Source: Candidatus Kuenenia stuttgartensis
GTDB taxonomy: Bacteria > Planctomycetota > Brocadiia > Brocadiales > Brocadiaceae
Length of the DNA: 32,000 nt
Reading direction: 5' to 3'
Assembly: GCF_900232105.1 (NCBI RefSeq)
Contig: NZ_LT934425.1
Span: 1,500,001 to 1,532,000 of the forward strand
Every line of letters starts with the position of its first letter. The stretch's first letter is position 1. A model generated the notes under the pieces. That model saw only the letters and a list, made by a program, of their open reading frames with translations, searched no databases and had not been told where the DNA came from. The position numbers were made by a program, and so were the translations under genes. Below are positions 1 through 5,864 of the stretch, in pieces.

Positions 1-97
1 CGTCTGCGCTATGAATTTGTTCCGAACGACTTTTGATTTTTCCAAGGGCTTCATCAATCTGATGGAGTATTGACAGAACAAGGTCATTATCAAACAT
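1..97 (-). CDS. hepT: HepT-like (DUF86) toxin, N-terminal fragment cut by the window edge
   Basis: A minus-strand ATG at 97..95 sits in ATGTTTGA, overlapping the stop of the upstream nucleotidyltransferase gene by 8 nt. My translation, MFDNDLVLSILHQIDEALGKIKSRSEQIHSAD, resembles DUF86 N-termini. The order NTase then DUF86 is the canonical MntA-HepT arrangement. Confidence 0.5.
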   Translation of the reverse strand, partial: MFDNDLVLSILHQIDEALGKIKSRSEQIHSAD

Positions 98-380
98 AGA
101 CGCCCTCTTTCTCTATGCGTTCTTTAAGAAAAGGGTTCATCTTTTCCCGCATCCTGACAATATCAACCTGTTTCCGCACCCGGCTTTCAATCTCTTCCTT
201 TATGTGCACCATTGCAAACGGGTTGGGAGTCTTTGTTTTTATACAGACGTCAACATCACTGTCCTCCCTCGCTTCATCCCGAGCAATCGAACCGAAGATT
301 CCGATTTCAAGTATGCCGTATTTATCCGCAAAGTTCTGTTTGAAGTCGCGCAAAATGGCTAGTATATCATCTCTTCCCAT
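90..380 (-). CDS. mntA: MntA-type minimal nucleotidyltransferase (antitoxin partner of HepT)
   Basis: 96-aa ORF. GIFGSIARDEAREDSDVDVCI is the GS...DxD signature of the minimal NTase fold. It is translationally coupled to the downstream DUF86-like fragment. Confidence 0.8.
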   Translation of the reverse strand: MGRDDILAILRDFKQNFADKYGILEIGIFGSIARDEAREDSDVDVCIKTKTPNPFAMVHIKEEIESRVRKQVDIVRMREKMNPFLKERIEKEGVYV

Positions 381-482
381 TATCTGCCTCCTACTGCATT
401 TATTGCCAATATCTTCTTTCCATAACTACACCTCAATGACCTTGAGACCTTCAAACCGCAAAGGGAATAAAGGCTAGGATCA

Positions 483-1106
483 TTACCGTTTCATCAACTT
501 TCCCTGGCTTTGAGCAGTTTTGATGACAGGATGATTAGCCGTAAAGATTTGTATCCCCGGCACTGTGACAAAGTCGCCATCATCGGTAATGACCTTTAGC
601 ACACCTGCCTTTGAAATAGCTTCAAGGATAAACAGATCGTAGCCGTCGAGAGGCTGACTCGAAAGCCTTGAGAGAGCAGCATTAGTAACCTGTTCATCTA
701 TTTGAAGGTCAAGCGTTTGAGCCATTGTGTTAACCTGGCTCCAGGCGGTTTGAACTTCTGCTACGACATTGGCCCGTTCTGTTGAATGGTTATGGCGGTA
801 TTCTTTACTACCCAAGGCCCCATTAGAGCGGCTGTAAATCTCCCGCTCCGTCCTTTCGATCAGGTGTGCTAATTCTGCCAGAGAAAGTCCGCATCTGTGG
901 AGTTGGCTTTTCGCTGAAATGGTCTTGCTGATGTATGATGGATAGTCGTTTGTTTGATAAGGTTTGGGACGCGTATCCGCCAGATCTGCCCTGGAATAAG
1001 TAACCCAGTACCATACATTGGTATCCACAAGAAAGATATCGTCTTGCCCCGGTGTGTCATTGCGAATATCGATTACTTCGGCATGGACTGTATAATTGAT
1101 TGCCAT
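483..1106 (-). CDS. PIN-like nuclease domain protein (207 aa, longer than a minimal PIN)
   Basis: Acidic residues occur in PIN order: FLVDTNVW, LAELAHLIE, LDGYDLFILEA, VITDDGDF. Its ATG overlaps the stop of the upstream STAS-like gene (TAATG at 1104-1108). Confidence 0.6.
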   Translation of the reverse strand: MAINYTVHAEVIDIRNDTPGQDDIFLVDTNVWYWVTYSRADLADTRPKPYQTNDYPSYISKTISAKSQLHRCGLSLAELAHLIERTEREIYSRSNGALGSKEYRHNHSTERANVVAEVQTAWSQVNTMAQTLDLQIDEQVTNAALSRLSSQPLDGYDLFILEAISKAGVLKVITDDGDFVTVPGIQIFTANHPVIKTAQSQGKLMKR

Positions 1107-1453
1107 TATAAAGCCTCGGACTGTTCAAGCAGGACTTCGTCAACGGCCTTACGAACGTTAGGGTTGGAATAATACTCTTTAGAGTTCTCAATAACTCTTT
1201 TGAGAACCGCTAAACCTGTAGGGACAATGTTTGTAATTTTGAGGAGGCGGTTAAGGTCGTCAGGTTTAATATCTTTGAGTAGCCGACCAATGGCGGCATT
1301 AAAGAACGGTGATGCAAATATTTTCACATCCTTAAAATCAAGGGCAACGATATTGCCGCCTGATAATTCAGGGTGTATCAAGTTGAAAATTTTCTGACCG
1401 TCCTCCAGTGTAATGCAGTTTTCACCAACCAGATCAAATACGTTTATCTTCAT
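1106..1453 (-). CDS. STAS-like small protein (DUF4325-type)
   Basis: 115-aa ORF. The segment LDFKDVKIFASPFFNAAIGRLL and the overall size match the STAS-like/DUF4325 pattern. GGAGG lies 7 nt upstream of the ATG. Confidence 0.6.
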   Translation of the reverse strand: MKINVFDLVGENCITLEDGQKIFNLIHPELSGGNIVALDFKDVKIFASPFFNAAIGRLLKDIKPDDLNRLLKITNIVPTGLAVLKRVIENSKEYYSNPNVRKAVDEVLLEQSEAL

Positions 1454-1594
1454 TTTAAAACCTCCATTGATTAAAAAAGCGGCTCTTCAACAACTTCTGA
1501 CGCCAAGTGGTAATATGATTCATCACAAATAAAAGTTATATTTATAAGAGTTCCTTCAAAAAATGTAGACCTGTTCAAGAACTCTTCCCGCTTG

Positions 1595-2356
1595 CTATCT
1601 ATGTATAGCATAACCCTCATGGCTAAATACCTCAAGTTTTCCCTTATTGATTTTTACGAACTCTTTAAGCAGATCAAGCCCCAGACCTCTATTATTTGGC
1701 TTCGTGGTTGTCCCGCGCTGAAATGCCCATTTCAGGCAGCTTGCGGCGTTCAAGGAGTGCGCCCGCGGATCATGTTTGAAAAACATTCTTACATTTGACG
1801 GTATCCCAACGCCAAAATCCACAACTGAAAGTTTAAGTTCATGTTTATTCGGGTAATGTTGACCGCAGCTAAAGATACCAATGGGCGACTGGCCATGCTC
1901 AAAGGCATTGGCGTAAATCTCCCAGACCCTGCCAACAATGGCATCCTTCAGCATTTCACTCACAGGAACCCATCCTCGCCCCAGCCAATTCGTTTTCAAG
2001 TAGTCAACCAGAACAACTTTATCTTGGCAAAAATCCTCACGATACGGGATTGAATTACCAGACCATGGAGCGCCGCCAAATCCTAATGTTGAAAAAAACC
2101 CATTCTGTTCCAAGTTTACTTTTATTTTTGGGTGAATCGTATCCAAATCAAATCGAACAATCCCGCCTCTGGCTTGAATTAACCGAGTAAGCCCACCCAG
2201 AAAGGCAACGGCATTATGGCGTAAAAACCTACAACGGTTAAATTCAAATGTCACATCCAGATTGTCGTTATTTACCTGATTCCAGAGGTTAAACAAGACA
2301 TCAAAATCTGCGGTAGTGTAGTCATTGATTGTAGGTATAGAGAGCGTTATCTTCAC
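1595..2356 (-). CDS. GHKL (histidine-kinase-like) ATPase, RsbW/SpoIIAB-type, with a STAS-like N-terminal region
   Basis: 253 aa with N-box EIYANAFEHG, G1 box VVDFGVGIP and G2 box GLGLDLL. The N-terminal ~100 aa (FEFNRCRFLRHNAVAFLGGL...IKVNLEQNGFF) look antagonist/STAS-like. The GTG start overlaps the stop of the hsdS remnant (GTGA). Confidence 0.65.
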   Translation of the reverse strand: MKITLSIPTINDYTTADFDVLFNLWNQVNNDNLDVTFEFNRCRFLRHNAVAFLGGLTRLIQARGGIVRFDLDTIHPKIKVNLEQNGFFSTLGFGGAPWSGNSIPYREDFCQDKVVLVDYLKTNWLGRGWVPVSEMLKDAIVGRVWEIYANAFEHGQSPIGIFSCGQHYPNKHELKLSVVDFGVGIPSNVRMFFKHDPRAHSLNAASCLKWAFQRGTTTKPNNRGLGLDLLKEFVKINKGKLEVFSHEGYAIHR

Positions 2357-2574
2357 AACTCCCCTCTAAAGGCCTTTGCCAGTAAGGCTGGAGTAAAGAC
2401 TGCCAGTTCTGCCTCTGTCTCGGATTGCAATTGTTTAAGTTCTTCCGATTTCCTTTGAAGACCGTTGAGATATTCAACAATACTGCGCTGTTCTGCTTTA
2501 TCATTAGGGAATCTCATAGAAAGCGGACCAACTCCGTTTTGGTTTTTGTATAGCCCTGTTTCCTGGAAAAACAT
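2353..2574 (-). pseudogene. hsdS: Type I restriction-modification specificity subunit (HsdS), C-terminal remnant
   Basis: In the 73-aa ORF, AEQRSIVEYLNGLQRKSEELKQLQSETEAELAVFTPALLAKAFRGEL matches the conserved C-terminal coiled-coil region of HsdS. No TRD1, hsdM or hsdR is present in the window. Its ATG abuts the MITE-like insertion. Confidence 0.65.
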
Positions 2575-2580
2575 GATTAA

Positions 2581-2680
2581 TGTAACACTTTAGTTTTTTG
2601 GAAAAACAGGGACGAAGCATTTGCCCGTTTGGGCAAGAATGCATTTATGGCAATTTACAGCAAATGCTTCGCCCCTACAC
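2581..2680. mobile_element. MITE-like ~99-100-bp insertion flanked by a TGATTAA(T) direct repeat
   Basis: TGATTAAT occurs at 2574-2581 and again at 2681-2688. The insert starts with the dispersed motif TGTAACACTTTAGTTTTTTGGAAAAA. It also contains a 17-bp stem with 1 mismatch (AGGGACGAAGCATTTGC at 2609-2625 against GCAAATGCTTCGCCCCT at 2660-2676) and an inner TTGCCC-GTTT-GGGCAA hairpin. Confidence 0.6.
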
Positions 2681-2688
2681 TGATTAAT

Positions 2689-2834
2689 AGATACATGCAT
2701 CCATCGCTTTTCAGACGCAGTGTTTTCACAAATTCTGGTTTTGAGTGTCCAGACACATAGACTTTGAAAAAATAGCCACCCCCTGTAAACGCAATGGTAT
2801 GGTGCTCCTCTTGTATCCCCTTATTTCCAGCAAG
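2689..2834 (-). pseudogene. Upstream piece of the interrupted hsdS-like reading frame
   Basis: 48 open codons (LAGNKGIQEEHHTIAFTGGGYFFKVYVSGHSKPEFVKTLRLKSDGCMYL...) are in frame with the 2574..2353 ORF once the insert and one repeat copy are removed (...CMYLLI-MFFQETG...). As it stands, the frame stops 10 codons into the insert. There is no start codon, and stop codons lie immediately upstream. Confidence 0.4.
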
Positions 2835-2840
2835 TCAATA

Positions 2841-3058
2841 TTATTTTCCAGTCTCTACAGGTATCATCACACTTATTTCTTTCAGTGTTACAAGCCTGGA
2901 AGTATCGGGTATTTCAATTTCAAGAGTGGTAAGCCCTGCTTGTCAAGATGAAGAATTACACCCTCCTTCAAATCTATTGAGTCACCAAGCGTACCATCTC
3001 TAAGCTCTATCAGAACAATATCAGCTTCCTTTGAATATTTTATCTTCAGATGTACCAC
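2841..3058 (-). pseudogene. DUF2283-like small gene, apparently frameshifted
   Basis: My minus-strand translation from GTG 3058 (AAGGAGG lies just upstream) is VVHLKIKYSKEADIVLIELRDGTLGDSIDLKEGVILHLDKQGLPLLKLKYPILPGL*, stopping at 2888. The family-typical C-terminus LEIEIPDTSRLVTLKEISVMIPVETGK* lies in another frame and ends at 2841. The usual MKIKY start is CTG here. Confidence 0.45.
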
Positions 3059-3183
3059 CTCCTTTATAATAACGTTCTCTATAAGGGAAATCCACTGTGA
3101 GCAATATTGGTATAGATGATAGGAAATTGCTTTTCCCCATTAGGCGGTCAGATTAGCAAAAACATGGAAATTTGCAAAATTTT

Positions 3184-3741
3184 TTATTTTATCGGCTTTA
3201 TTGAATATTTATCTTTCACTTTTTCCCACATCGTCTCGGCAGCCTGCACCGAAGGTTTGCCCGCTTCTAAATGAACGAGTTTGCCGTCACGATCGTAGAC
3301 CAGGACAACCGTCTTTTTCTTAGGCACTTTCAGGGCCCGGCGGATCTCTCCGCCGTTGTCGATCAGGAGAAGCGGCTCCTTGCCGAACTGGTAATCCTTC
3401 TTCATTCCCTTGATGGCCGCGCCCTTAAATAAGCTCGGTTGCATGTCTTCCAGGAAAGCCAATTTGGCTTTGGAACCCGCTTTGGCTTTTAAGAGATACT
3501 TATTCCACTTTTCCTGGGCGGATTTATTCTTCAAAATAGGCGCCGTCACCACCAGCACTATGCCATCTTTGGAAATACTCTCGTTCGTAAACGTATTTCC
3601 ATTCGGGTCATTCAGAGAAAAGGCGGGAAGTGTTTGAGCGAAGAGCGACGCATCTGGGACTCCGAGGGTGTGTATTTTCTCTGTACAGGACACACTCGTC
3701 AACACAATGATTAAAGCAATAAATAGAAGCCAGTTTTTCAT
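3184..3741 (-). CDS. Exported protein, possible lipoprotein, with redoxin-like layout but no CxxC
   Basis: I prefer the internal ATG at 3741, which gives the signal peptide MKNWLLFIALIIVLTSVSC. PAFSLNDPNGNTF...GIVLVVTAPILKNKSAQEKW resembles the thioredoxin-fold/redoxin layout but lacks cysteines. The functional call is tentative. Confidence 0.5.
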   Translation of the reverse strand: MKNWLLFIALIIVLTSVSCTEKIHTLGVPDASLFAQTLPAFSLNDPNGNTFTNESISKDGIVLVVTAPILKNKSAQEKWNKYLLKAKAGSKAKLAFLEDMQPSLFKGAAIKGMKKDYQFGKEPLLLIDNGGEIRRALKVPKKKTVVLVYDRDGKLVHLEAGKPSVQAAETMWEKVKDKYSIKPIK

Positions 3742-4098
3742 GAGTTCATCTTTTTCAAAGCACCTGGTGACCCTGTATGATCCGAACGAGGACCACAACC
3801 ACGGCGATTACCCACAACATACGCTCATCCTTTCCCCCCCTCTTATCTGATCCCGCTTACACTTCGCTTGATCATGATTCAGGTTAATAGATATGTGAAT
3901 GTGCGCCACAGAGATTTCGCTATTACGCAGCTTATAATGTTGTTGTGTTGGCGTAGGTTACAAAGATTGAACAGCAACGCCGCCATTCAGATAGTACGAT
4001 ACATCCTGCCTTCTGATTGCTGACTTCTGTTTTTCTACCTTCGTTGCAGCTCCGTATTTCAAAATAGATGCTTTGTAGACAATGGAGTGCGAGTTTAA

Positions 4099-4123
4099 CA
4101 CGGACAAACGGGGTTTGTCCGTG
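4099..4123 (-). terminator. GC-rich hairpin downstream of hutU
   Basis: CACGGACAAA-CGGGG-TTTGTCCGTG is a perfect 10-bp stem lying 56 nt past the hutU stop. Neither strand has a clean U-tract after it, so terminator function is uncertain. Confidence 0.3.
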
Positions 4124-4178
4124 CCACCCTTATAAAAAAACTAACATTTTGCGGGCATTTTGAGTATAGCAAAAGAAA

Positions 4179-5864
4179 CTACTCCGGTATTTTTACGCCC
4201 TTTTCCTTTGCAACAATAATTGCATCTTCGTATCCGGCGTCGACATGGCGTGCGATTCCTATGCCTGGGTCTGCGGTTAAAACCCTTTCAAGTCTCTTGT
4301 CTTTCTCTGCGGTTCCGTCAGCAACGATTACCATTCCCGCATGGAGAGAGTTTCCTATCCCCACGCCGCCGCCATGGTGAAAACTTACCCAGCTTGCGCC
4401 ATTCACTGCGTTCAGGGCAAAATTCAATAACGGCCAATCGGCAATTGCATCGCTGCCGTCTTTCATGTTTTCCGTTTCCCTGTAAGGAGAAGCAACAGAA
4501 CCGCAGTCAAGATGGTCTCTTCCGATAACCACAGGCGCTTTCACCACACCCCTTCTTACCATATCATTAATAATGAGTCCCATCTTTGCGCGTTCGCCAT
4601 ATCCCATCCAGCAAATCCTTGCGGGAAGCCCTGCTTGTGGTACCTTTTGCCTTGCAAGGTTTATCCATCGAACGAGAGCCGTATCATCAGGAAAATTTTC
4701 AATAATCGCCTGGTCTATCTTATCGATGTCCGCCGTATCCCCCGATAACGCAGCCCAGCGAAACGGGCCTTTCCCCTGGCAAAACAACGGCCTGATAAAT
4801 GCGGAGACAAAGCCGGGATACCAGTAGTTCCCGTGTGAATCACGCATGGAAACACCGGCAAACTCCGCCTGTGAACGCAGATTGTTGCCGTAGTCAAAGC
4901 ATATTGCCCCGTTTCTCTGCATCTGTAAAATCGCCTTTACGTGTTCGATAATGGCGTCAAAGACCTTTTCCTTATAGACCCGTTTATTTTTCTCCCGCAC
5001 GTTATCCAATTCTTTTAAATCGCCCACCGGCACGTAGGACATTAAATCATGCGCCGGGGTTTGATCCGTTACGATATCCGGGGTTATTCCGCGTTTTACC
5101 AGTTCCGGATGAATAACAGCGGCATTCCCAACCAGTCCCACTGAAAGGGGTATTTGCCGGGATTTTGCATCAGATATCCACGACAATGCCTCATCAAGGC
5201 TCTCTGTGATTTTGTCACAATATCCCTCTCTTACCCTTTTTTCTATACGGTCCTTTCGCACTTCCACACAAAGGACTACCCCGTCATTCATTGTTACCGC
5301 AAGGGGCTGTGCGCCGCTCATGCCACCCATACCCGCGGTAAGCACGAATTTCCCCTTTAAAGAATCGGTATTCAGTACTTTTTTCGCCAATGCCGCGAAG
5401 GTTTCGTAGGTACCCTGCAAAATTCCCTGAGCGCCAATATAAATCCAGCTTCCTGCCGTCATCTGTCCATACATAGTAAGGCCGAGGGCGTCGTAATTAT
5501 CAAATATATCCTGGTTTGCCCATCCGGGGACAAGGTTGGCGTTTGCGAGGATGACCCTTGGCGCCCATTCATGCGTTTTTGCCACGTACACCGGCTTCCC
5601 CGACTGTACACAGAGCGTTTCGTCTTTTTTTAATGTTTTTAATGCGGCAACAATCCTTTGATATTCCTTCCAGTTCCTTACGGCGCGTCCATTCCCGCCA
5701 TATACAATAAGTTCTTCCGGCTGAACGGCGATATCAGGGTCAAGATTATTCATCAACATGCGCAACGCCGCCTCGCTATCCCAGTTGTCGCAGTTGAGGG
5801 TAGTTCCTGTGGGCGCCTTAATCGGGCCTTCCGGTCTGAATTCATAAAACATCGGTCGGGTCAT
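4179..5864 (-). CDS. hutU: Urocanate hydratase
   Basis: The protein shows full-length urocanase-like sequence ([74 protein letters not shown]). I prefer the ATG at 5864 (AAGGA upstream) over the TTG at 5873. Confidence 0.9.

What the first reader, a model, noticed from the sequence alone, without database searches (positions are those of the whole stretch)
483..2574. GHKL ATPase + STAS-like + PIN-like cassette fused behind an hsdS remnant: candidate partner-switch-controlled nuclease (defence/TA-like) module
Four minus-strand ORFs are chained with almost no spacing. First is the hsdS C-terminal remnant (2574..2353), joined by a GTGA overlap to the GHKL ATPase. That ATPase is 253 aa (2356..1595; N-box EIYANAFEHG, G1 DFGVGIP, G2 GLGLDLL), and its first ~100 aa themselves look STAS/antagonist-like. 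After a 140-nt gap comes a 115-aa STAS-like protein of the DUF4325 type (1453..1106). Its LDFKDVKIFASPFF segment sits where SpoIIAA/RsbV-type STAS proteins carry the phospho-serine loop. A TAATG overlap then joins it to a 207-aa PIN-like protein (1106..483). That protein carries the D/E/D/D set FLVDTNVW, LAELAHLIE, LDGYDLFILEA, VITDDGDF and is roughly 70 aa longer than a minimal PIN. A GHKL kinase plus a STAS protein is the logic of partner-switching modules (RsbW/RsbV, SpoIIAB/SpoIIAA). Here the output position is taken by a predicted RNase rather than a sigma factor, and the STAS-PIN pair is laid out like antitoxin-toxin. The context is that of a defence/TA islet: a decayed type I R-M, a HepT/MntA pair about 100 nt away, a MITE-like insertion and a decayed DUF2283 gene. 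I do not recognise this trio as a named defence or TA system, but I cannot consult catalogues from here.
Basis: partly seen in the sequence, partly recalled or inferred. Interest (0 to 1): 0.75.

Follow-up and report, generated by a model that had tools for sequence, protein, structure and literature searches.

The report
Known VapKSC kinase-controlled toxin-antitoxin, decayed
The three genes are a copy of VapKSC, a phage-defence toxin-antitoxin system published in 2026 in which a kinase releases an RNase-type toxin from its inhibitor; the finding is real but already known, and in this copy the kinase gene is broken.

Summary
The four minus-strand ORFs are real and sit at the stated coordinates. 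The trio (GHKL, then STAS/DUF4325, then PIN) keeps its order and strand in about 76 of 80 species-level genomes from many phyla, and in 5 viral contigs. It is not new. It is VapKSC (Chambers et al., EMBO J 2026, PMC13373217; PDB 9z7o). In that work VapC was toxic, VapS neutralised it, and a phospho-mimic at VapS S48 abolished neutralisation. The operon gave about 2-log protection against one phage. Activation of VapK by ssDNA is the authors' model and was not tested. The window proteins match Escherichia VapK, VapS and VapC at about 54, 40 and 47% identity, and keep VapS S48, VapC D28 and the VapK F54 equivalent. The paper's Dataset EV3 lists Candidatus Kuenenia stuttgartiensis, the organism of this window.

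Two corrections apply. The "140-nt gap" is the out-of-frame 3' end of vapK, caused by a 1-nt insertion at 1603 that is seen in four assemblies, so the kinase is probably dead. The hsdS stub is a relic: in 29 of 80 relatives vapK directly follows hsdS in a type I R-M operon.

Novelty: already known.

The parts
1471..2356 (-). vapK, a STAS + GHKL Ser/Thr-kinase gene, here a frameshifted pseudogene. The 5' part is 2356..1604 (called ORF 1595..2356, 253 aa). The extra base is C at 1603. The 3' part, 1602..1471, codes in another frame for IDSKREEFLNRSTFFEGTLINITFICDESYYHLASEVVEEPLF*.
   Evidence: Homologues are 291-297 aa. The DNA alignment with L006 and L007 shows a 1-nt insertion. The repaired protein is 54% identical to Escherichia VapK over 275 aa, E=2e-103. 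The N-box EIYANAFEH, G1 DFGVGI and G2 GLGLDLL are invariant in A1. AF2 and Foldseek give an N-terminal STAS-like domain (RsbS 6jhk_A, prob 0.99) plus a GHKL domain (SpoIIAB 1tid_A, prob 0.99). The frameshift is present in 4 assemblies.
1106..1453 (-). vapS, the STAS/DUF4325 antitoxin (115 aa). It has the conserved phospho-acceptor Ser48 (IFASPFF) and the C-terminal inhibitory region (about residues 94-115).
   Evidence: Pfam DUF4325 E=9e-16. It matches PDB 9z7o_A 'Escherichia VapS' at E=1.7e-22 over residues 2-112, about 40% identity. It is identical to KsCSTR_08970.
483..1106 (-). vapC, the PIN-domain toxin (207 aa). The catalytic residue is D28. E78, D157, D175, D176 and D178 are invariant.
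   Evidence: It matches PDB 9z7o_C 'Escherichia VapC' at E=1.9e-52 over residues 1-205, about 47% identity. The profile of 32 homologues gives E=2.2e-67. Pfam PIN E=2.9e-4.
2353..2574 (-). hsdS C-terminal stub, a relic of the type I R-M operon that precedes vapK in relatives. Homology to relatives' HsdS runs from 2356 to about 2544-2616.
   Evidence: PADLOC Specificity_I C-terminal hits. tblastn with the HsdS proteins of L006, L013, L022, L010 and L056 matches only their last 39-97 residues. In 29 of 80 relatives a full or half hsdS lies directly upstream on the same strand, and in 21 of those the spacing is -4 to +4 nt.
2608..2676 (.). A 17-nt inverted repeat (arms 2608-2624 and 2660-2676) at about the point where hsdS homology ends. 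It may mark the deletion or insertion breakpoint.
   Evidence: unique in the window.

Best explanation
The cassette is a vapKSC operon, a three-component kinase-controlled type II-like toxin-antitoxin and anti-phage system. VapC, a PIN nuclease, is held inactive in a VapS2VapC2 complex by the STAS protein VapS. In the published model, VapK (an N-terminal STAS-like domain plus a GHKL kinase) is switched on by single-stranded DNA that arises from DNA damage or phage infection. [quoted passage not shown] VapS falls off and VapC arrests growth, probably by cutting rRNA or tRNA.

Shown experimentally in the Escherichia orthologue: VapC toxicity, rescue by VapS, the effects of S48E and of the C-terminal deletion, the crystal structure, and about 2-log phage protection that was lost in the D28A, S48A and F54A mutants.

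Inferred by the authors only: ssDNA binding and the kinase reaction itself.

Inferred here for the Kuenenia copy. The locus descends from an hsdR-hsdM-hsdS-vapK-vapS-vapC unit. It has lost hsdR, hsdM and most of hsdS. It has also acquired a recent +1 insertion that removes the last 43 residues of VapK, which form the final strands of the Bergerat-fold sheet. The kinase trigger is therefore probably dead. The intact VapS-VapC pair persists as an untriggerable and possibly addictive TA remnant.
For: Homology to the characterised system: VapK 54% identity, E=2e-103; VapS E=1.7e-22 and VapC E=1.9e-52 against PDB 9z7o. The functional residues are conserved: VapS S48, VapC D28, and VapK F44, which aligns with Escherichia F54 in CRFLRxNAVAF. 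The experiments and model are in PMC13373217 sections 13-14. Dataset EV3 of that paper lists Candidatus Kuenenia stuttgartiensis and strain CH1 as vapKSC carriers, and the window's VapS is KsCSTR_08970.

The trio is invariant. The order GHKL>DUF4325>PIN holds in about 76 of 80 GTDB species loci, and the exceptions are three contig ends and one decayed copy. It also holds in 5 IMG/VR contigs where VapK identity falls as low as 29%.

The frameshift is shown and occurs in four independent assemblies. The AF2 model places strands 242-255 and 259-278 at and after the break. dN/dS is about 0.1 for all three genes, including the out-of-frame tail, so the frameshift is recent. The R-M ancestry rests.
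Against: Nothing about the Kuenenia proteins themselves has been tested. VapK kinase activity and ssDNA activation were not demonstrated even in Escherichia, because VapK was insoluble there. My AF2 model of VapC is only moderate (pLDDT 75), and its best fold match is a weak VapC hit (3zvk_A, E=0.06), so the PIN assignment rests on sequence. The claim that the truncated VapK is inactive is an inference from the fold. The published dataset still lists this gene as VapK. Whether vapS and vapC are still expressed after loss of the upstream operon is unknown; the promoter scan found no more sites than chance.
Confidence: 0.85

Rival explanations
1. The locus is a fully working VapKSC. Either the 253-aa truncated VapK is still an active kinase, or the two vapK fragments complement each other, or ribosomes bypass the frameshift.
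For: The frameshift allele is stable across four assemblies. The downstream 43 codons are still open and differ at only 2 of 42 positions from P0124, which is 83% identical to the window VapK overall. The ATP-binding motifs (N-box, G1, G2) all lie upstream of the break. The published dataset lists the gene as VapK.
Against: The break removes part of strand 242-255 and all of strand 259-278 of the predicted GHKL sheet, together with the family-wide conserved C-terminus. The site (GCU AUA C AUA GAU AGC) has no slippery sequence at which the P-site tRNA could re-pair after a +1 shift (own knowledge of frameshift sites). The intact tail is equally expected from a recent mutation.
Confidence: 0.1
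2. The system is an R-M guard of the PrrC type. VapK senses the state of the adjacent type I R-M enzyme, for example its inhibition by a phage anti-restriction protein, and not free ssDNA. In that case the Kuenenia copy lost its sensor input when hsdRMS was deleted.
For: 44 of 80 relatives have type I R-M genes within 6 kb. 29 have hsdS directly upstream on the same strand, and 21 of those have spacing of -4 to +4 nt. The association recurs with two different HsdR families: about 780 aa with EcoEI_R_C, and 1070 aa with T1RH-like_C. Other restriction-linked genes (Fic, RhuM, Ymh, Mrr_cat, SIR2_2) share these loci.
Against: The paper's assays were done with the vapKSC operon on its own, and it protected against Bas42. 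The Escherichia locus has no PADLOC hit within 10 kb. The F54A mutation in the predicted ssDNA site abolished defence. About 45% of my loci, and most rows read in Dataset EV3, have no type I R-M nearby.
Confidence: 0.12
3. The whole locus is an inert fossil. After hsdR, hsdM and the operon promoter were lost, vapK, vapS and vapC are no longer expressed, and the intact ORFs only reflect how recent the decay is.
For: The upstream operon is deleted down to a stub of 63-97 codons. No promoter-like site stands out above chance. vapK is already broken. About 10 of 80 relatives show fragmented vapK or vapC.
Against: vapS and vapC are complete and keep every invariant residue. Across the 80 loci vapS is never lost while vapC is intact. 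The one locus that lacks vapS (L044) also has only a vapC fragment. This is the pattern expected if an expressed toxin makes the antitoxin indispensable.
Confidence: 0.2
4. The system is a classical partner switch. The GHKL protein binds and sequesters the PIN nuclease as RsbW or SpoIIAB binds sigma, and unphosphorylated STAS displaces it.
For: The domain logic is the same as RsbW/RsbV. Foldseek matches SpoIIAB and RsbS.
Against: The 9z7o crystal structure and the pull-downs show that VapS, not VapK, binds VapC. VapS alone rescues VapC toxicity. The phospho-mimic releases the toxin; it does not re-sequester it.
Confidence: 0.03

Closest known systems
VapKSC of Escherichia sp. E4736 (Chambers, Rani, Min, Villa, Corbett, EMBO J 2026, PMC13373217; PDB 9z7o)
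   Same: It has the same three genes in the same order. VapK is 54% identical, VapS about 40% and VapC about 47%. S48, D28 and the F54 equivalent are conserved. The Kuenenia locus is listed in the paper's Dataset EV3.
   Different: The window's vapK carries a +1 frameshift that removes the last 43 residues. The window copy sits behind an hsdS stub, whereas the Escherichia locus has no PADLOC hit within 10 kb.
CapK-CapS (same paper)
   Same: It is a STAS + GHKL kinase that phosphorylates a conserved serine in a STAS-domain partner in response to ssDNA or DNA damage. It often lies immediately downstream of an R-M system (88 of 443 cases).
   Different: CapK has an extra N-terminal HTH. CapS carries a wHTH and is a transcriptional repressor of a downstream immune operon. 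Here the STAS protein has a short C-terminal helix and inhibits a nuclease directly.
SpoIIAB/SpoIIAA and RsbW/RsbV partner-switching modules
   Same: A GHKL Ser-kinase phosphorylates a STAS protein on a conserved serine. The folds match (1tid_A and 6jhk_A, both prob 0.99).
   Different: In those modules the kinase is itself the anti-sigma factor and the STAS protein is the anti-anti-sigma. In VapKSC the STAS protein is the inhibitor of the output, the output is a PIN nuclease, and the kinase carries its own fused STAS-like domain.
VapBC type II toxin-antitoxin systems
   Same: The toxin is a PIN-domain protein with the acidic quartet. The antitoxin gene lies immediately upstream and overlaps the toxin gene. 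Neutralisation is by direct binding.
   Different: The antitoxin is a STAS protein and not a DNA-binding RHH, AbrB or PHD protein. It does not displace the active-site Mg2+. Release is by phosphorylation and not by proteolysis. VapC here is about 70 aa longer than minimal VapCs.
PIN.4 subgroup of Matelska et al., NAR 2017 (PMC5499597)
   Same: [quoted passage not shown]
   Different: That survey did not note the kinase and proposed no function. I did not verify that the window protein is in their PIN.4 sequence set.
PrrC/EcoprrI and other restriction-linked (rlo) genes embedded in type I R-M loci (own knowledge, not tested here)
   Same: An abortive-infection RNase module is encoded inside or at the end of a type I hsd operon.
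   Different: PrrC is an anticodon nuclease with an ABC-ATPase domain. It is held latent by the R-M enzyme and activated by a phage anti-restriction peptide. No such dependence is known for VapKSC.

Membership tests
VapKSC | A three-gene operon in the order kinase, STAS protein, PIN protein on one strand, tightly spaced | tested here: met
   vapK runs 2356..1471, vapS 1453..1106 and vapC 1106..483. There are 17 nt between the repaired vapK stop and the vapS ATG, and vapS and vapC overlap by 1 nt. The same order holds in about 76 of 80 relatives.
VapKSC | VapK has a CapK-like STAS domain and a GHKL kinase domain, and is homologous to Escherichia VapK | tested here: met
   54% identity over 275 aa, E=2e-103. 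The AF2 model has an N-terminal STAS-like domain and a GHKL domain, with Foldseek hits to RsbS and SpoIIAB. N-box, G1 and G2 are present.
VapKSC | The VapK reading frame is intact | tested here: not met
   A 1-nt insertion at window 1603 truncates the protein at 253 of about 294 aa, in four assemblies. This bears on whether this copy works, not on family membership.
VapKSC | VapK has the conserved aromatic residue of the predicted ssDNA site (Escherichia F54) | tested here: met
   Window F44 in RCRFLRHNAVAF aligns with F54 in HCRFLRPNAVAF. The position is invariant in 20 homologues.
VapKSC | VapS has a STAS domain with an absolutely conserved Ser/Thr (S48) and a C-terminal inhibitory region | tested here: met
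   DUF4325 E=9e-16. It aligns with 9z7o_A over residues 2-112 with S48 conserved in FASPFFN. It is 115 aa against 116 aa in Escherichia.
VapKSC | VapC is a PIN nuclease with catalytic D28, homologous to Escherichia VapC | tested here: met
   E=1.9e-52 against 9z7o_C. D28 and the other acidic residues are invariant.
VapKSC | VapC is toxic, VapS neutralises it, phosphorylation releases it, and the operon protects against phage | not testable with these tools
   This was shown only for the Escherichia orthologue.
RsbW/SpoIIAB-type partner switching | The GHKL protein itself binds and sequesters the output factor, and unphosphorylated STAS displaces it | not tested
   The published structure and pull-downs of the orthologue show that the STAS protein binds the output, which argues against this arrangement. 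Nothing was tested on the window proteins.
VapBC (canonical type II TA) | The antitoxin has a DNA-binding domain (RHH, AbrB, PHD or HTH) and autoregulates the operon | tested here: not met
   The upstream protein is STAS/DUF4325 with no DNA-binding domain hit.
Type I R-M system | Complete hsdR, hsdM and hsdS genes | tested here: not met
   Only the last 63-97 codons of hsdS remain. No hsdM or hsdR lies upstream in the window or in L001.

The most novel reading that the evidence does not exclude
In the clade that includes this copy, vapKSC is not a free-standing TA. It is the hard-wired 3' module of type I R-M operons (hsdR-hsdM-hsdS-vapK-vapS-vapC, with hsdS stop and vapK start overlapping). 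It would work as a coupled second layer. DNA fragments or ssDNA produced when the R-M enzyme and host exonucleases attack incoming DNA, or a failing R-M enzyme, would fire VapK and release the RNase. The Kuenenia locus would then record how such a unit decays: R-M is lost first, then the kinase, and the addictive VapS-VapC pair goes last. The published paper discusses R-M coupling for capKS but not for vapKSC.
Probability: 0.3. Interest if true: 0.45.

Novelty: already known. Interest (0 to 1): 0.22.

Why it matters
The finding shows that a sequence-only reader reconstructed, independently and almost exactly, the logic of a defence system that was published with structures and genetics in 2026. 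As biology, it adds one more annotated VapKSC copy, which the authors had already listed.

Two things go beyond the paper, and both are modest.

1. This copy, and about one in eight relatives, is partly decayed, and the pattern fits toxin-antitoxin addiction. The kinase or the toxin breaks. The antitoxin is never lost while the toxin is intact.

2. In a species-level sample, more than half of the closest relatives sit in type I R-M loci. About a third follow hsdS directly, with overlapping stop and start codons. This extends to vapKSC the idea of R-M-coupled layered defence that the authors raised only for capKS.

Tried and rejected
- PADLOC 2.0.0 and NCBIfam gave no system-level hit for VapS or VapC. 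The catalogues held here predate the naming.
- Full-text searches for DUF4325 and for STAS-like plus defence gave only the PIN.4 remark and prophage annotation tables. The decisive lead came from the PDB sequence search, which pointed to the 'VapS' paper.
- Kaur et al. 2020 (PMC7159879) mentions STAS and PIN only in unrelated contexts.
- The Foldseek search of my VapC model was uninformative. The model has pLDDT 75, the best hit was VapBC2 at E=0.06, and 9z7o is not in that library.
- The PDB profile search with the VapK alignment hit only CheA and ZraS ATP-binding domains, weakly.
- tblastn of VapC against the plasmid and phage collections found nothing. An IMG/VR scan did find 5 full trios.
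- The promoter and terminator scan of 1..3200 was at chance level.
- Rfam found nothing in 1..4200.
- The 'MITE' idea: the inverted repeat at 2608-2676 has no other copy in the window, so multi-copy status is not supported here.
- I considered programmed frameshifting at the vapK break and rejected it, because the site has no slippery sequence.
- The N-terminal extensions of about 100 aa in some VapK homologues have no Pfam match.
Full report
**Observation.**
They are the PIN-like gene 483..1106 (207 aa), the DUF4325 gene 1106..1453 (115 aa), the GHKL gene 1595..2356 (253 aa, GTG start) and an hsdS C-terminal stub 2353..2574 (73 aa). The GTGA and TAATG overlaps are real.

- Pfam gives DUF4325 at E=9e-16.
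- PIN (21.9 bits, cut-off 23.6) and HATPase_c (25.4 bits, cut-off 26.4) fall just under their cut-offs.
- The stub matches only the C-terminal end of type I specificity subunits.
- The neighbouring 96-aa ORF (90..380) is an MntA-type nucleotidyltransferase. In the longer contig L001 a HepT gene follows it.
- The organism is Candidatus Kuenenia stuttgartiensis. The VapS protein is identical to KsCSTR_08970.

Homologues of the GHKL protein are 291-297 aa, not 253. The window reads ...HEGYAIHR*, where relatives read ...HEGYAIIDSKREEFLNRSTFFEGTL...EEPLF. That missing tail is encoded, in another frame, by 1602..1471. A DNA alignment with L006 and L007 shows a single inserted C at window 1603.

The '140-nt gap' is therefore the 3' end of a frameshifted gene. 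The true distance from the kinase gene to the STAS gene is 17 nt. The same allele occurs in three JGI metagenome contigs and one Logan assembly, so it is a real mutation of this lineage and not a sequencing error.

**Conservation.**
The three proteins have 1393 (PIN), 1155 (GHKL) and 448 (DUF4325) relatives at E<=1e-3 in the 90%-clustered protein collection. A scan of one genome per GTDB species with a GHKL alignment (A1) confirmed 172 relatives, of which the best 80 were returned. My own HMMs for the three families show GHKL>DUF4325>PIN, in the same order and on the same strand, in about 76 of those 80 loci. The exceptions are three contig ends and one decayed locus.

The hosts span Planctomycetota, Nitrospirota, Desulfobacterota, many Cyanobacteria, Bacteroidota, Ignavibacteria, Chlorobi, Verrucomicrobiota, Gammaproteobacteria, Chloroflexota, Desantisbacteria and an archaeal MAG. 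VapK identity to the reference is at least 50% throughout, which implies horizontal spread. Five IMG/VR contigs also carry the full trio, some with VapK identity as low as 29%. No copy was found in the plasmid or phage record collections.

**Identification.**
A sequence search of the PDB was decisive. The window PIN protein matches 9z7o chain C, 'Escherichia VapC' (E=1.9e-52, residues 1-205). The DUF4325 protein matches 9z7o chain A, 'Escherichia VapS' (E=1.7e-22).

The source paper is Chambers, Rani, Min, Villa and Corbett, EMBO J 2026 (PMC13373217; bioRxiv February 2026). [quoted passage not shown] The paper reports:

- 289 vapKSC operons in IMG, 36% of them within 10 kb of a PADLOC hit.
- A 3.4 A VapS2VapC2 structure.
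- VapC toxicity, abolished by D28A.
- Rescue by VapS, lost with S48E or with deletion of residues 94-116.
- About 2-log protection against phage Bas42, lost with VapC D28A, VapS S48A or VapK F54A.

The authors' model is ssDNA, then VapK, then phospho-VapS, then free VapC. They state that the kinase reaction and ssDNA activation could not be tested, because VapK was insoluble.

Dataset EV3 of the paper lists 'Candidatus Kuenenia stuttgartiensis' and strain CH1. In CH1 the VapK and VapS gene identifiers skip one number. That is consistent with the extra small ORF the frameshift creates, although I could not check it.

**Membership.**
I recovered the Escherichia VapK sequence from the authors' AlphaFold 3 file. 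It is 54% identical to the repaired window VapK over 275 residues (E=2e-103). F54 aligns with window F44 in the invariant CRFLRxNAVAF motif. VapS is about 40% identical and VapC about 47% identical to the crystallised proteins. VapS S48 (IFASPFF) and VapC D28 (FLVDTNVW) are conserved.

An AF2 model of an intact homologue (P0124, 83% identical to the window VapK; pLDDT 82.8) shows an N-terminal alpha/beta domain and a C-terminal GHKL domain. Foldseek matches RsbS (prob 0.99) and SpoIIAB (prob 0.99), along with GyrB, TopoVI-B and WalK. My VapC model is mediocre (pLDDT 75) and its fold hits are weak, so the PIN assignment rests on sequence.

**Context.**
The hsdS stub is not a coincidence. I clustered the flanking ORFs of the 80 loci and ran Pfam on them. 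The commonest arrangement is hsdR (about 780 aa; ResIII plus EcoEI_R_C), then hsdM (about 510 aa; HsdM_N plus N6_Mtase), then hsdS (about 400 aa), then vapK, vapS and vapC, all on one strand.

- The gene directly upstream of vapK is a Methylase_S protein in 28 of 78 loci.
- 44 of 80 loci have type I R-M genes within 6 kb.
- 29 have an hsdS-cluster gene immediately upstream on the same strand. In 21 of those the spacing is -4 to +4 nt, as in the window.
- In five Nostocales loci the trio lies instead between a divergent 1070-aa HsdR of another family and hsdS/hsdM. The association therefore arose at least twice.
- Other neighbours are typical restriction-linked genes: SIR2_2, Fic, RhuM, Ymh, Mrr_cat, Z1, a PLD-SNF2 nuclease-helicase, and an S8 peptidase with an AAA ATPase.

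The window stub aligns only with the last 63-97 residues of relatives' HsdS, at 86% identity to L006. Homology ends near a unique 17-nt inverted repeat at 2608-2676.

The paper notes R-M adjacency for capKS (88 of 443) but not explicitly for vapKSC. In the part of Dataset EV3 that I read, RM_type_I appears in only a minority of rows. My sample is biased towards the closest relatives of the Kuenenia protein.

**How this copy most likely works.**
The family mechanism is as published. For the window copy, the frameshift removes part of predicted strand 242-255 and all of strand 259-278 of the GHKL sheet, together with the conserved ...EEPLF C-terminus. The kinase is therefore probably inactive.

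dN/dS against L006 and L007 is about 0.1 for vapK, vapS and vapC, and about 0.03-0.04 for the now out-of-frame tail. The tail differs from P0124 at only 2 of 42 positions. The lesion is therefore recent.

Across the 80 loci, vapK is fragmented in four (L014, L020, L022, L073) and vapC is fragmented or truncated in about six. vapS is missing only where vapC is also destroyed (L044). This is what addiction logic predicts. The trigger and the toxin can decay, but the antitoxin cannot be lost while the toxin is intact.

I therefore read the Kuenenia locus as a decaying hsdRMS-vapKSC unit. R-M is gone and the kinase is disabled, but VapS and VapC are still intact and probably still form an inhibited complex. 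Whether they are expressed is unknown.

**Rivals.**
- A working system despite the frameshift is possible but unlikely (confidence 0.1).
- A PrrC-like guard of the R-M enzyme fits the genomic linkage. It is weakened because vapKSC alone protects E. coli and the predicted ssDNA-site mutant is dead (confidence 0.12).
- A wholly silent fossil cannot be excluded (confidence 0.2).
- A strict RsbW-type partner switch is contradicted by the VapS2VapC2 structure (confidence 0.03).

**Verdict.**
The system is already named, structurally and genetically characterised, and this locus is already catalogued, so novelty is 'already known' and interest is low. The small additions are the vapK frameshift and the quantified type I R-M linkage.

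Noticed in passing
window 1603 (vapK, minus strand): A single inserted C frameshifts vapK. The same allele is in three JGI contigs and one Logan assembly. The published VapKSC dataset lists this gene as VapK without comment.
   Followed up: yes
L006-L085 (80 genome loci): Decay is asymmetric. vapK is fragmented in L014, L020, L022 and L073. vapC is fragmented or truncated in L008, L011, L013, L031, L066 and L044. vapS is absent only in L044, where vapC is also destroyed. This fits antitoxin addiction.
   Followed up: partly
window 483-2356 compared with L006 and L007: Relatedness is mosaic. vapK is closer to L006 (87% against 80% aa identity). vapS is much closer to L007 (93% against 77%) and vapC is also closer to L007 (80% against 73%). 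This suggests recombination between modules of different vapKSC alleles.
   Followed up: no
P0148, P0158, P0170, P0173, P0175, P0193, P0202, P0237 (VapK homologues of 392-413 aa): A subset of VapK proteins carries an N-terminal extension of about 100 aa. In P0148 it contains CxxC pairs and so looks like a Zn ribbon. It has no Pfam match. It sits where CapK carries its HTH domain.
   Followed up: partly
alignment A1, last 5-6 columns (window 1471-1488, out of frame): VapK ends in a conserved acidic-hydrophobic tail (E-E-P-L-F, or P-F). The AF2 model predicts it to be disordered (pLDDT below 50). It could be a docking motif, but its function is unknown.
   Followed up: no
window 2608-2676: A 17-nt inverted repeat (94% complementary, 35-nt spacer) lies where hsdS homology ends. 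It could be a breakpoint scar or a terminator-like hairpin.
   Followed up: partly
window 2888-3058 (minus strand): The DUF2283 ORF of 56 aa matches Pfam positions 1-38 of 49 (E=1.2e-7). It looks like a small gene missing only its last few profile positions, and is not obviously decayed.
   Followed up: no
window 1-380, and L001 11977-15727 (beyond the window start): The MntA gene (90..380) is followed by a HepT gene that the window start cuts. The longer contig then has an AAA_15/AAA_21 ATPase (537-651 aa) and a second MntA-HepT pair. Together these form a small defence/TA islet next to recG.
   Followed up: partly
L061, L069, L082, L085: A SIR2_2-domain protein of 980-1312 aa lies directly upstream of vapK on the same strand. 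In L069 and L082 it is inserted between a type I R-M gene and vapK. It is another candidate defence effector sharing the R-M-linked slot.
   Followed up: no
L024, L034, L037, L038 (Nostoc and Chroococcales loci): A subtilase (S8, about 830 aa) and an AAA ATPase (about 330 aa) lie directly downstream of vapC in four cyanobacterial loci.
   Followed up: no
L086-L090 (IMG/VR contigs): Complete vapKSC trios occur on predicted viral or proviral contigs, including divergent ones with 29-35% VapK identity. The GenBank phage collection has none.
   Followed up: partly
PMC7924643, Francisella prophage KIRK, Fhv_0046-0048: A 293-aa hypothetical protein is followed by a 112-aa DUF4325 protein and then a 125-aa transmembrane protein, next to the CI repressor and integrase. 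This may be a VapK/VapS-like pair with a non-PIN third gene.
   Followed up: no
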